64,000 nucleotides of DNA, from the NCBI GenBank assembly GCA_030068145.1, contig JAPJBO010000158.1, positions 245,818 through 309,817 on the forward strand, read 5' to 3'. This document shows positions 2,582-62,774 of the stretch, piece after piece (positions within the stretch are counted from its first letter, which is position 1; each line of letters begins with the position of its first letter). This stretch comes from Diplonema papillatum (Eukaryota). Under the pieces are notes generated by a model. It did not search any database. It worked only from the letters and a program-made list of their open reading frames with translations, and was not told where the DNA came from. Made by a program: the position numbers and the translations under genes.

Positions 2582-2848
2582 ATGGGTAAGTCCGAGATGT
2601 GGGAGTACGACCTGGTGATGAACCTGTCGAAGGCCCTCGCGGGAGGCGGCGGCGGTGGAGGTGGCTTCATGATGCAACCTGGCATGATGCAACAGGCTGC
2701 CCCGACGCAGCAGGCCGCCCCGGCCGCTACTGACGCCGCGGAAGAGGAGAAGGAACCGGAAAAACCTGTCGAGGAAGTCAAGGCGAAGACCGAGTTCGAC
2801 GTCAAACTGACCCAGATCGACCCCGCGAACAAGGTCAAAGCGATCAAG
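2582..2848 (+). CDS. Ribosomal protein bL12 (L7/L12-type, organellar), exon 1
   Basis: Translation ...EEEKEPEKPVEEVKAKTEFDVKLTQIDPANKVKAIK matches the start of the bL12 C-terminal domain (KTEFDV...KVAVIK). The donor is AAG|GTATCT at 2849. An upstream exon may exist because the N-terminal oligomerisation domain is only weakly visible. Confidence 0.65.
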
Positions 2849-3288
2849 GTATCTTCTTGTTTTCTGTCTGCGCAATCACAAAAAAAGGTCGCAAGGGAAC
2901 GTGTCAGAGACAAAGTCTAACTGACGCGTTCCCCAAGACACCAAACTGATCGTCCCTCGGGATCGACGGTAACACAAAAACAGTGCAGCGAAACCACGAA
3001 CTCCACAAGTACTCGATGCAATAGCAAGCGACACAACGCCATGAAGCATCCCAAGGAGAACGCGCATTGCAAAGGCGAAGGCGGGCATGCATCGCAACTT
3101 GGGGATCGACGGTAACACGAAACCAATGACACCTTTCAACAAAAGAAACTGCCGGTAGGGAATTACCCGAACTCGTCTCTGTCTCTCATAAAAGGTCGGC
3201 GCGGTAGTGGTGACAGAACATACTGCAGATGAAATGTAGGGCAACCCGTGAAATCGTACGTGCTTAACTACACCTTTTCACCTTTCAG

Positions 3289-3441
3289 GTTCTGAAGGAC
3301 GTGCTCAAGATGGGTCTGAAGGATGGCAAGGACAAGGTCGAGAACCTCCCGTCTATCATTGCGACCGGCACTTCGAAGGACGACGCGGAAAACCTGAAGG
3401 CGAAACTGGCCGAAGTGGGTGCCTCTGCGACAATCGTGTGA
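3289..3441 (+). CDS. Ribosomal protein bL12, exon 2 (C-terminal domain plus stop)
   Basis: The acceptor is CCTTTCAG|G at 3288. Translation VLKDVLKMGLKDGKDKVENLPSIIATGTSKDDAENLKAKLAEVGASATIV* matches the bL12 CTD (LKEAKDLVE..P..KDDAE.LKK.LEEAGA). Confidence 0.75.
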   Translation, partial: VLKDVLKMGLKDGKDKVENLPSIIATGTSKDDAENLKAKLAEVGASATIV

Positions 3442-3479
3442 GAAGGTTTACGCCTGTCTCTCCCTGCACAACGTGTGCA

Positions 3480-61300: not shown

Positions 61301-61912
61301 GAGGAACACCCAGTGAGGAACACCCAGTGAGGAACACCCAGTGAGGAACACCCAGTGAGGAACACCCAGTGAGGAACACCCAGTGAGGAACACCCAGTGA
61401 GGAACACCCAGTGAGGAACACCCAGTGAGGAACACCCAGTGAGGAACACCCAGTGAGGAACACCCAGTGAGGAACACCAAGTGAGGAACACCCAGTGAGG
61501 AACACCCAGTGAGGAACACCCAGTGAGGAACACCCAGTGAGGAACACCCAGTGAGGAACACCAAGTGAGGAACACCCAGTGAGGAACACCCAGTGAGGAA
61601 CACCCAGTGAGGAACACCCAGTGAGGAACACCCAGTGAGGAACACCCAGTGAGGAACACCCAGTGAGGAACACCCAGTGAGGAACACCCAGTGAGGAACA
61701 CCCAGTGAGGAACACCCAGTGAGGAACACCAAGTGAGGAACACCCAGTGAGGAACACCCAGTGAGGAACACCCAGTGAGGAACACCCAGTGAGGAACACC
61801 CAGTGAGGAACACCCAGTGAGGAACACCCAGTGAGGAACACCCAGTGAGGAACACCAAGTGAGGAACACCCAGTGAGGAACACCCAGTGAGGAACACCAA
61901 GTGAAAAACACC
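58392..61912. repeat. Satellite DNA: 14 bp unit CACCCAGTGAGGAA x about 250, with sporadic CACCAAGTGAGGAA variants
   Basis: Perfect periodicity over 3.5 kb. The three about 1200-aa minus-strand ORFs here are pure repeat artefacts. No spacers, so not CRISPR-like. Confidence 0.97.
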
Positions 61913-62009
61913 AATTGAATTTGCGAATTCGGAAGAGAGGTCAGTCCCGCAAAGAAGTAGACGCGACCTGACTTAGCTCCTTCACCAACAGGTCACAACG
62001 GCGTGCATC

Positions 62010-62774
62010 ATGATGCGATTAACACGGGCCGGCTCTGAGCCCGTTGCCGATTTTGTAAACGATGTGATCGAACGAGTACTGCAGTGTCTCGAAAGAAGCG
62101 ACGGCACTCTGCTGGCAGTCGTCGGCAACAGCATTTTGGCAGCCTGGAACATGGCTAAACCCTGCATCCACCACTTCGAGAGCGCCATCCACTTCGCGAC
62201 CATTCTGCTGCAGAATCACGATCAGGATCACCACGAGCTGCGCGTCATGGACGACTGCCTCAACATCGGACTCGCCACAAGCTCTGCTCTGTGCGGTTCT
62301 TTCGGCACCGACAGCCAACGTTTCCTCACGGCTATGGGACCGTGTGTGTCCCTGTGTTGGAATCTTGCCAACACGGCATCCCTCTTGAACGTGACATCGC
62401 TCTACACAATGCCGAACGTGAGTAAGCATTTCTCGTGGCTGTGCGCCGAACACGGGAACAAGCTGCGTCCCGTGGCAAAGAGCAGATGGTGCCGCACCGG
62501 GATCGACGGCGATGACTCCGTATTCATTTTCCAGGTCGAGACGAAGCCAGAGAAGTGGGGAAAGCGCCTCATCCCCGCCACCTGCGACATCAGCAATTCA
62601 ACGGAGGACAACCCTCTCACTCTGTTTCCGTGGAGCAACGCGACCCACTGGAATGAGTTCCTCGCAGGGAACTTGGACGCCATCAAGTCACGCGCGCAAG
62701 AAAATGAGGATCACACCCTCGTGTCCATCCTTGATTGCGTCGGCAGCGACCTCTTTTTGAAACACCAATCCTAG
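62010..62774 (+). CDS. Degenerate second cyclase-homology domain (pseudo-catalytic CHD). Either an exon of the upstream cyclase or a separate gene.
   Basis: ...DGTLLAVVGNSILAAWNMAKPC..ESAIHFATILLQ...HELRVMDDCLNIGLATSSALCGSFGTDSQRFLTAMGPCVSLCWNLANTASLLNVTSLYT...GNKLRPVAKSRWCRTGIDGDDSVFIF is collinear with CHD motifs. GNS replaces the metal-binding GD(S/A). GLATSSALCG replaces GIHSGPVVAG. GPCVSLCWNLAN replaces GDTVNLASRME. A polypyrimidine/AG acceptor (TCCTTCACCAACAG|G) lies at 61977-61991. Confidence 0.6.
   Translation: MMRLTRAGSEPVADFVNDVIERVLQCLERSDGTLLAVVGNSILAAWNMAKPCIHHFESAIHFATILLQNHDQDHHELRVMDDCLNIGLATSSALCGSFGTDSQRFLTAMGPCVSLCWNLANTASLLNVTSLYTMPNVSKHFSWLCAEHGNKLRPVAKSRWCRTGIDGDDSVFIFQVETKPEKWGKRLIPATCDISNSTEDNPLTLFPWSNATHWNEFLAGNLDAIKSRAQENEDHTLVSILDCVGSDLFLKHQS

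What the first reader, a model, noticed from the sequence alone, without database searches (positions are those of the whole stretch)
2582..62774. All recognisable host genes are co-directional while the transposons are mixed; polycistronic, Euglenozoa-like organisation?
bL12, the RRM protein, aminopeptidase P, thiolase, SYS1, the GAF exon, the cyclase and the second CHD are all on the + strand across 60 kb. Of the transposons, the full-length LINE and the YR element are on the minus strand and the truncated LINE copy is on the plus strand. Combined with the VIPER-like element architecture and the stranded LSU module, this fits a polycistronic transcription unit of a euglenozoan (diplonemid or euglenid-like) with cis-introns. 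The sequence alone cannot prove it.
Basis: inference. Interest (0 to 1): 0.55.

Follow-up and report, generated by a model that had tools for sequence, protein, structure and literature searches.

The report
Diplonema one-direction gene array, already published
The window is a piece of the published Diplonema papillatum nuclear genome, where host genes all point the same way and only transposon genes point backwards; the genome paper of 2023 already describes this layout, so it is real but ordinary for this organism.

Summary
A Pfam scan of every ORF of at least 60 aa on both strands found host domains only on the + strand: bL12, RRM, aminopeptidase P, thiolase, SYS1 and adenylate cyclase. The - strand gave only reverse transcriptases and low-complexity noise. 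Five proteins encoded here are 100% identical to GenBank proteins of Diplonema papillatum (KAJ9463435, 437, 438, 442, 444), all on one 320,200-bp contig. That length matches tig00023412 in Valach et al. 2023 (BMC Biol 21:99), whose gene orientation is listed as '1M32P2M2P'. By accession order, the two minus models are the two ORFs of the multi-copy retroelement at 50.8-54.9 kb.

The paper already reports unidirectional arrays of 5 to over 120 genes, SL trans-splicing of essentially all mRNAs, and transposons inside introns. It also reports opposite-strand 'trend-disrupting' models that are mostly transposon ORFs, scattered 28S pieces and 5' gene-fragment tandem repeats. So the diplonemid and polycistronic reading is supported and already known.

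Corrections:
- The cyclase and the 'second CHD' are one gene, so there are 6 verified host genes, not 8.
- The GAF exon and the tyrosine recombinase are unverified.
- The 'truncated LINE' is not a copy of the full-length LINE.

Polycistronic transcription itself remains inferred, here and in the paper.

The parts
2552..3441 (+). bL12 (organellar ribosomal protein L7/L12) gene. One exon ends at 2849, the GT-AG intron is 2850-3289, and the last exon is 3290-3441. The true 5' end is uncertain.
   Evidence: Ribosomal_L12 C-terminal domain, E=2.7e-13, on 3268-3438. Splice sites read directly from the sequence.
5500..6304 (+). Isolated 3'-terminal piece of 28S rRNA (Rfam model positions 2555-3401).
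   Evidence: Rfam LSU_rRNA_eukarya, 404.7 bits. The paper reports about 3600 scattered 28S pieces.
6623..7830 (+). Tandem copies, period 559 bp, of the 5' part of the RRM gene, running into the gene itself.
   Evidence: Direct repeats at 6623, 7182 and 7741, 97-100% identical. Duplicated peptide segments. The paper describes this phenomenon.
7591..9750 (+). Single-exon RRM-domain protein gene, 719 aa (DIPPA_21391, KAJ9463435).
   Evidence: RRM_1, E=1.9e-12. The translation is identical to P0241.
11343..11978 (+). Degenerate upstream duplicates of the first exon of the aminopeptidase P gene.
   Evidence: tblastn of P0001 residues 1-95 at 77-92% identity. Direct repeats 11727 vs 12450 at 94%.
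12415..19253 (+). Xaa-Pro aminopeptidase P gene, 618 aa (KAJ9463437). Exons: 12415-12830, 13635-14850, 17685-17792, 19137-19253. All three introns are GT-AG.
   Evidence: 100% identity to P0001. Junctions solved. Pfam architecture.
22222..32105 (+). Thiolase gene, 396 aa (KAJ9463438, 'Acetyl-CoA acetyltransferase'). Exons: 22222-22852, 23226-23572, 31539-31632, 31987-32105. Intron 2 is 7966 nt.
   Evidence: The hand-built GT-AG model equals the GenBank protein exactly. Thiolase_N 3.7e-73 and Thiolase_C 5.8e-47.
25164..31064 (-). Full-length non-LTR retrotransposon (LINE) ORF of 1967 aa. It lies antisense inside thiolase intron 2.
   Evidence: RVT_1, 2.5e-08. Best PDB sequence matches are R2 and LINE-1 ORF2 proteins. 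It sits within intron 23573-31538.
37950..38441 (+). SYS1 (Golgi integral membrane protein) ORF, 163 aa.
   Evidence: Pfam SYS1, E=5.8e-37, covering 139 of 144 model positions. This exact 163-aa model is not in the protein collection.
43955..44470 (+).
   Evidence: Highest codon-usage score of the otherwise unassigned ORFs, 81 bits on +. No Pfam or PDB hit. AF2 pLDDT 34. The GAF resemblance is by eye only.
48541..50745 (+). 5'-truncated R2-like non-LTR reverse-transcriptase ORF. A (TC)186 microsatellite (48143-48509) precedes it.
   Evidence: RVT_1 model positions 110-204 only. PDB matches to R2 proteins. No significant similarity to the full-length LINE. Microsatellite.
50849..54875 (-). Multi-copy retroelement of about 4 kb, bounded by 125-bp direct repeats. 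It has a 257-aa zinc-finger ORF (53930-54700) and a 903-aa RT ORF (51164-53872, KAJ9463442). By accession order these are the two minus-strand gene models of the contig.
   Evidence: RVT_1, 3e-08. Retroviral-type RT in PDB. 28 paralogues at 90% identity or more, and an identical 257-aa ORF on 46 contigs. Direct repeats.
55786..62774 (+). Adenylate cyclase gene, 1063 aa (KAJ9463444). Exon 1 is 55786-58194 and exon 2 is 61992-62774. The single GT-AG intron is filled by a 14-bp satellite of 252 copies (58388-61912).
   Evidence: 100% identity to P0121. Junction solved. Guanylate_cyc, 1.1e-26. Satellite.

Best explanation

Most likely mechanism, as in the sister group Kinetoplastida: RNA polymerase II starts at a few sites and reads through many head-to-tail genes. 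Each mRNA is then cut out by trans-splicing of the 39-nt spliced leader at its 5' end, coupled to polyadenylation of the gene upstream. GT-AG cis-introns are removed as well. Under this model orientation is constrained for host genes, because a gene on the other strand would not be transcribed. Retroelements insert in either orientation, in intergenic DNA or in introns, and need not be expressed. That leaves them as the only features on the opposite strand.

Shown here: the organism, the gene models, their strands, and the transposon nature of the minus-strand ORFs. Taken from the literature: genome-wide unidirectional arrays and SL on essentially all mRNAs. Inferred, here and in the literature: co-transcription as a polycistron, and the absence of per-gene promoters.
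For: - Both-strand Pfam scan: host domains occur only on +, and only RVT_1 and noise on -.
- 100% identity to D. papillatum proteins KAJ9463435, 437, 438, 442 and 444, all on one 320,200-bp contig.
- Additional file 3 of PMC10161547 lists tig00023412 (320,200 bp) as '1M32P2M2P'.
- Accession order puts the two minus models at 442 and, by inference, 443, directly before the cyclase at 444. Those are the two ORFs of a multi-copy retroelement.
- The paper states that arrays of 5 to over 120 genes occur in 87% of contigs over 50 kb, and that essentially all mRNAs carry the SL. It also states that 'trend-disrupting' opposite-strand models lacked evidence of transcription and were mostly related to transposon or dispersed-repeat ORFs.
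- The LINE lies inside a thiolase intron, as the paper describes for transposons.
- No independent minus-strand coding signal exists outside transposons.
Against: - No transcript data were available, so SL acceptor sites and read-through transcripts in this window are untested.
- The 200 nt upstream of the five known start codons show no consistent polypyrimidine-AG signal.
- Several gaps between verified genes are long: about 5.8 kb from the thiolase to SYS1, and about 17 kb from SYS1 to the cyclase. The paper itself suggests that large intergenic regions may hold internal promoters.
- Window-level significance alone is modest (p=0.03 for 6 genes).
- The contig name is matched by length only.
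Confidence: 0.8

Rival explanations
1. The genes form a unidirectional array but not one polycistron. Several internal promoters in the long repeat-rich gaps give a series of short transcription units, or even single-gene units that still receive the SL.
For: The paper says arrays may contain multiple promoters, likely in unusually large intergenic regions. This window has gaps of about 5.8 kb and 17 kb between verified genes, full of repeats and transposons.
Against: Same-strand orientation of 34 of 37 models on the contig is hard to explain if every gene had its own promoter. SL trans-splicing of essentially all mRNAs is what a polycistronic system needs.
Confidence: 0.17
2. The co-orientation is a chance run in a genome with ordinary monocistronic genes.
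For: Only 6 verified independent genes lie in the window, with p=0.03.
Against: The contig has 34 of 37 models on one strand, p=1e-7. The same pattern holds genome-wide.
Confidence: 0.01
3. The sequence belongs to another lineage with unidirectional gene arrays and SL trans-splicing, such as a dinoflagellate.
For: GC-rich DNA, many retroelements, introns and same-strand genes would fit; I considered this before the homology search.
Against: 100% identity to five D. papillatum proteins on one contig. All resolved introns are canonical GT-AG.
Confidence: 0.01

Closest known systems
Unidirectional gene arrays (putative polycistronic transcription units) of Diplonema papillatum, Valach et al. 2023, BMC Biol 21:99 (PMC10161547)
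   Same: Same organism, and by length the same contig. The window shows head-to-tail host genes, opposite-strand models that are transposon ORFs, transposons in introns, GT-AG introns, scattered 28S pieces, and tandem repeats of gene 5' fragments.
   Different: Nothing substantive. This contig was not among the three that the authors curated by hand, so the assignment of its two minus models to a retroelement is made here.
Polycistronic transcription units of Kinetoplastida (Trypanosoma, Leishmania)
   Same: Long same-strand gene arrays and SL trans-splicing of mRNAs. Gene expression is thought to be controlled after transcription.
   Different: Diplonema genes are widely spaced, 41% contain cis-introns, half the genome is repeats, and transposons sit inside arrays and introns. 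There is no synteny with kinetoplastids. Polycistronic primary transcripts are demonstrated in trypanosomes but only inferred in Diplonema.
VIPER and DIRS-like tyrosine-recombinase retroelements
   Same: The element at 50849-54875 has a small zinc-finger ORF followed by a long ORF with a retroviral-type RT. The first 85 or so residues of the modelled N-terminal segment form a helical bundle, and Cre, IntI and XerA are among its top fold matches.
   Different: No tyrosine-recombinase domain is detected by Pfam or by PDB sequence search. The fold matches are not significant (E about 1, on a model with pLDDT 44.7). The ends are 125-bp direct repeats.

Membership tests
Diplonema papillatum nuclear genome, contig tig00023412 | Encoded proteins are identical to the deposited proteins of that assembly and lie on one contig of the stated length. 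| tested here: met
   KAJ9463435, 437, 438, 442 and 444 are 100% identical, all on a 320,200-bp contig. A contig of that length is listed in Additional file 3. The contig name is matched by length only.
Euglenozoan unidirectional gene array / polycistronic transcription unit | Five or more consecutive protein-coding genes on the same strand. | tested here: met
   Six verified host genes are all on + in the window. The contig has 32 consecutive plus models.
Euglenozoan unidirectional gene array / polycistronic transcription unit | Interruptions of the array are non-host (transposon) ORFs rather than expressed host genes. | tested here: met
   The minus-strand ORFs are RT-bearing and multi-copy: 28 members at 90% identity or more, and an identical ORF on 46 contigs. 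There is no other minus-strand coding signal. Expression was not tested.
Euglenozoan unidirectional gene array / polycistronic transcription unit | A spliced leader is added at an AG site upstream of each gene. | not testable with these tools
   Needs RNA-seq. The paper reports SL on essentially all mRNAs genome-wide. Upstream sequences here give no clear signal.
Euglenozoan unidirectional gene array / polycistronic transcription unit | One primary transcript spans several genes, with no promoter per gene. | not testable with these tools
   Inferred only, in the paper as well.
Non-LTR retrotransposon (LINE) | Reverse transcriptase of the non-LTR type in one long ORF. | tested here: met
   For 25164-31064 (-): RVT_1 plus R2 and L1 ORF2 matches. 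For 48541-50742 (+): R2 matches, RT C-terminal half only.
Non-LTR retrotransposon (LINE) | Endonuclease domain, 3' tail and target-site duplication. | not tested
   Element ends were not mapped.
DIRS / VIPER-like tyrosine-recombinase retroelement | A tyrosine recombinase domain with the catalytic R-H-R-Y residues. | tested here: inconclusive
   No Pfam hit at E up to 5 and no PDB sequence hit. Only 4 homologues exist among 1.84 billion representatives, and the three I scanned have no integrase domain. Foldseek ranks Cre, IntI and XerA near the top, but at E about 1 on a low-confidence model.
   No Pfam family at E up to 5, no PDB sequence match, and a model with pLDDT 34. The resemblance is by eye only.

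The most novel reading that the evidence does not exclude
Retroelement orientation inside Diplonema arrays might not be neutral. Here the two intact elements lie antisense to the array and the one sense-oriented element is 5'-truncated. This could mean that sense-oriented intact elements are selected against because they carry processing or termination signals. Alternatively, the transposon-rich stretch between SYS1 and the cyclase could mark an internal transcription start or stop. With three elements this is only a hint. The paper does not report the orientation of same-strand transposon models.
Probability: 0.07. Interest if true: 0.4.

Novelty: already known. Interest (0 to 1): 0.08.

Why it matters
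It does not add to knowledge. The unidirectional, probably polycistronic gene organisation of D. papillatum, with transposon ORFs as the only strand exceptions, was published with the genome in 2023. The result is useful as a control: a reader working from raw sequence alone placed the window correctly among diplonemids. It also shows that the two minus-strand models on this contig, which the authors did not curate by hand, are retroelement ORFs, as the paper's extrapolation predicts.

Tried and rejected
- Whole-frame translations could not be aligned because they contain stop codons, so I used stop-to-stop ORFs instead.
- The look-up of encoding contigs has no record for the SYS1 ORF or for the GenBank aminopeptidase, so the contig annotation could not be fetched directly.
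- A chimeric query meant to retrieve the bL12, SYS1 and GAF-like proteins returned only the RRM protein. Models KAJ9463436 and 439-441 therefore remain unidentified.
- The exact 163-aa SYS1 ORF, the LINE ORF and the truncated RT ORF are not in the protein collection as such.
- The tyrosine recombinase was sought by Pfam, PDB sequence search, a 1.84-billion-protein phmmer search, AlphaFold and Foldseek. Nothing significant came out.
- GAF was sought by Pfam, PDB and AlphaFold, with nothing found.
- I looked for polypyrimidine-AG signals upstream of five start codons and found nothing consistent.
- I searched for the SL exon as printed in the paper's supplement, in two halves with up to 3 mismatches. 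There were no matches. No SL RNA family reached Rfam's gathering score either.
- A dinoflagellate or other origin was considered and dropped after the identity result.
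Full report
**What is in the window.** The 64-kb window is GC-rich (51-71% in 2-kb bins) and has no tRNA genes. Its only Rfam match is a piece of eukaryotic LSU rRNA. It is full of tandem repeats, including a 14-bp unit repeated 252 times at 58388-61912.

**Testing the strand claim without bias.** I extracted every stop-to-stop ORF of at least 60 aa on each strand, leaving out the satellite. That gave 293 ORFs on + and 277 on -. I scanned all of them against Pfam in four batches split by strand.
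- The + strand gave Creatinase_N, Creatinase_N_2, Peptidase_M24, Peptidase_M24_C, Thiolase_N, Thiolase_C, RRM_1, SYS1, Guanylate_cyc and one RVT_1.
- The - strand gave two RVT_1 hits and a few weak hits that I take to be low-complexity noise.

Targeted scans then placed the domains:
- RRM_1 in ORF 7390-9747 (+).
- The M24 peptidase core in 13504-14889 (+).
- Thiolase_N in 21892-22875 (+).
- SYS1 in 37950-38438 (+, E=5.8e-37).
- Guanylate_cyc in 55732-58254 (+).
- Ribosomal_L12 in 3268-3438 (+, E=2.7e-13).
- RVT_1 in 25164-31064 (-), 51164-53926 (-) and 48073-50742 (+).

A codon-usage log-likelihood trained on the confirmed exons found no minus-strand candidate outside the retroelements. What it found on the minus strand were antisense shadows of + strand exons and short weak segments of at most 22 bits in repeats or an intron.

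**Whose genome it is.** The large aminopeptidase exon is 100% identical to 'putative Xaa-Pro aminopeptidase P [Diplonema papillatum]', KAJ9463437, on a contig of 320,200 bp. Four more proteins match the same contig:
- The cyclase ORF is 100% identical to 'Adenylate cyclase [D. papillatum]', KAJ9463444.
- The RRM ORF equals DIPPA_21391, KAJ9463435.
- A four-exon thiolase model that I built from GT-AG sites and homology is exactly KAJ9463438.
- The 903-aa minus-strand RT ORF is exactly KAJ9463442, DIPPA_21399.

The next-best hits to the RRM protein and the cyclase include Rhum_TRINITY transcriptome proteins. From my own knowledge that label is Rhynchopus humris, another diplonemid.

**Gene models.** All positions are on the + strand.
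- bL12: an exon ending at 2849, intron 2850-3289, and a last exon 3290-3441.
- RRM protein: 7591-9750, one exon.
- Aminopeptidase P: exons 12415-12830, 13635-14850, 17685-17792 and 19137-19253.
- Thiolase: exons 22222-22852, 23226-23572, 31539-31632 and 31987-32105.
- SYS1: 37950-38441.
- Cyclase: exons 55786-58194 and 61992-62774.

All seven introns solved against GenBank proteins are GT-AG, and so is the bL12 intron. Thiolase intron 2 is 7966 nt long and contains the full-length LINE in antisense orientation. The single cyclase intron (3797 nt) is almost entirely the 14-bp satellite. That leaves six verified independent host genes.

**The GAF-like ORF.** The ORF at 43907-44587 has the best coding score of the otherwise unassigned ORFs, on the + strand. 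It has no Pfam or PDB match, and its AlphaFold model has pLDDT 34. It counts only as a probable + strand coding segment.

**The transposons.**
- The 1967-aa minus-strand ORF matches R2 and LINE-1 ORF2 proteins in the PDB, so it is a non-LTR element.
- The + strand RT ORF (48541-50742) holds only the C-terminal half of the RT and also matches R2 proteins. It shows no significant BLASTP similarity to the full-length LINE. It is a 5'-truncated non-LTR element of another family, not a copy of that LINE. A (TC)186 microsatellite precedes it.
- The third element spans 50849-54875 on the minus strand between 125-bp direct repeats that are 99% identical. It has a 257-aa ORF with a weak C2HC zinc-finger match, then a 903-aa ORF whose RT resembles retroviral RTs.
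- Both ORFs of that element are multi-copy in the genome. The RT ORF has 28 cluster members at 90% identity or more, and the 257-aa ORF is found with an identical sequence on 46 contigs.
- A tyrosine recombinase was not confirmed. Pfam and PDB sequence searches found nothing. A phmmer search of 1.84 billion representatives found four proteins, and the three I scanned have no integrase domain.
- A single-sequence AlphaFold model had pLDDT 44.7. Cre, IntI and XerA were among its top Foldseek matches, but at E about 1. 'VIPER-like' therefore remains a possibility, not a result.

**Comparison with the literature.** Valach et al. 2023 (BMC Biol 21:99, PMC10161547) published this genome. The paper and its supplement report the following:
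- The roughly 32,000 protein genes are 'likely co-transcribed in groups of up to 100'.
- 87% of contigs over 50 kb carry unidirectional arrays of five or more genes, and the longest has more than 120.
- Essentially all mRNAs carry the 39-nt SL.
- 41% of genes have introns, nearly all GT-AG.
- Transposons lie between clusters and within introns.
- About 3600 pieces of 28S rRNA are scattered through the genome.
- Dozens of genes have tandemly repeated 5' fragments.

Supplement section 7 adds that arrays are often interrupted by a single model on the other strand. Virtually all such 'trend-disrupting' models lacked evidence of transcription, and most were related to transposon or dispersed-repeat ORFs.

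Additional file 3 lists a contig of exactly 320,200 bp, tig00023412, with orientation string '1M32P2M2P'. Accession numbers rise along the window's + strand: RRM 435, aminopeptidase 437, thiolase 438, RT ORF 442, cyclase 444. The two minus models therefore fit 442 and, by inference, 443. Those are the two retroelement ORFs, sitting directly before the last two plus models. The window is thus the downstream part of a run of 32 same-strand gene models.

**Side features explained.**
- The LSU module is the 3'-terminal 800 nt of 28S rRNA.
- The 559-bp repeats at 6623, 7182 and 7741 are tandem copies of the 5' part of the RRM gene.
- The copies of the aminopeptidase first exon at 11.3-12.0 kb are the same kind of repeat.

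**Mechanism and its status.** The best explanation is a polycistronic transcription unit of the kinetoplastid kind, processed by SL trans-splicing and polyadenylation, with cis-splicing added.
- Shown here: organism, gene models, strands, and the transposon nature of the exceptions.
- From the literature: the genome-wide arrangement and SL usage.
- Inferred: co-transcription and the scarcity of promoters.

I could not test SL addition. The regions upstream of five start codons show no consistent polypyrimidine-AG signal. The window contains no SL exon or fragment, which is expected because SL RNA genes sit in separate SL-5S-U2 arrays. The main live rival is an array with several internal promoters in the long repeat-rich gaps, which the authors themselves consider possible.

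**Statistics.** Six of six genes on one strand gives p=0.03. The contig gives 34 of 37 (p=1e-7), or 34 of 35 without the two transposon models (p=2e-9).

**Verdict.** The finding is already known, so interest is low.

Noticed in passing
58388-61912: A 14-bp satellite (TGAGGAACACCCAG, 252 copies, 99% matches) fills nearly all of the single 3797-nt intron of the adenylate cyclase gene. This explains the extreme AT skew there.
   Followed up: yes
6623-7830 and 11343-12664: Tandem or nearby duplicates of gene 5' fragments. There are three copies with a 559-bp period running into the RRM gene, and degenerate copies of the aminopeptidase first exon upstream of the real one. This matches the 'repeat-bounded gene structures' of the genome paper.
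   Followed up: yes
5500-6304: An isolated 3'-terminal piece of 28S rRNA (Rfam model positions 2555-3401) lies between bL12 and the RRM gene. It is one of about 3600 scattered 28S pieces reported for this genome.
   Followed up: yes
50849-50973 and 54751-54875: Direct repeats of 125 bp, 99% identical, bound the minus-strand RT element. Its 257-aa ORF occurs with an identical sequence on 46 contigs. Whether the element encodes a tyrosine recombinase is unresolved.
   Followed up: partly
48143-50745: The + strand RT ORF is an R2-like, 5'-truncated element that abuts a (TC)186 microsatellite. It is unrelated at BLASTP level to the full-length LINE at 25-31 kb.
   Followed up: yes
2156-2474; 21130-21711; 55109-55437: Tandem repeats lie just upstream of three genes: 81 bp x4 before bL12, 196 bp x3 before the thiolase, and 15 bp x22 before the cyclase. 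They may be further examples of repeats at gene 5' ends.
   Followed up: no
36690-36949 and 40548-40801: A dispersed repeat of about 250 bp occurs at 95-98% identity on either side of SYS1, with a more diverged third copy at 36979.
   Followed up: no
41352-42194 and 46377-46529 (+): Further + strand segments with moderate coding score lie around the GAF-like ORF. They probably belong to the unidentified annotated models KAJ9463439-441.
   Followed up: no
37950-38438: The clean 163-aa SYS1 ORF is not present as an exact sequence in the protein collection. The deposited model either differs from it or is missing.
   Followed up: partly
contig tig00023412, 289212-289522 (contig coordinates): The paper's NUMT table lists a 310-bp mitochondrial DNA insert in a 665-nt intron on this contig. 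None of the introns I modelled has that length, and the window's offset in the contig is unknown.
   Followed up: no
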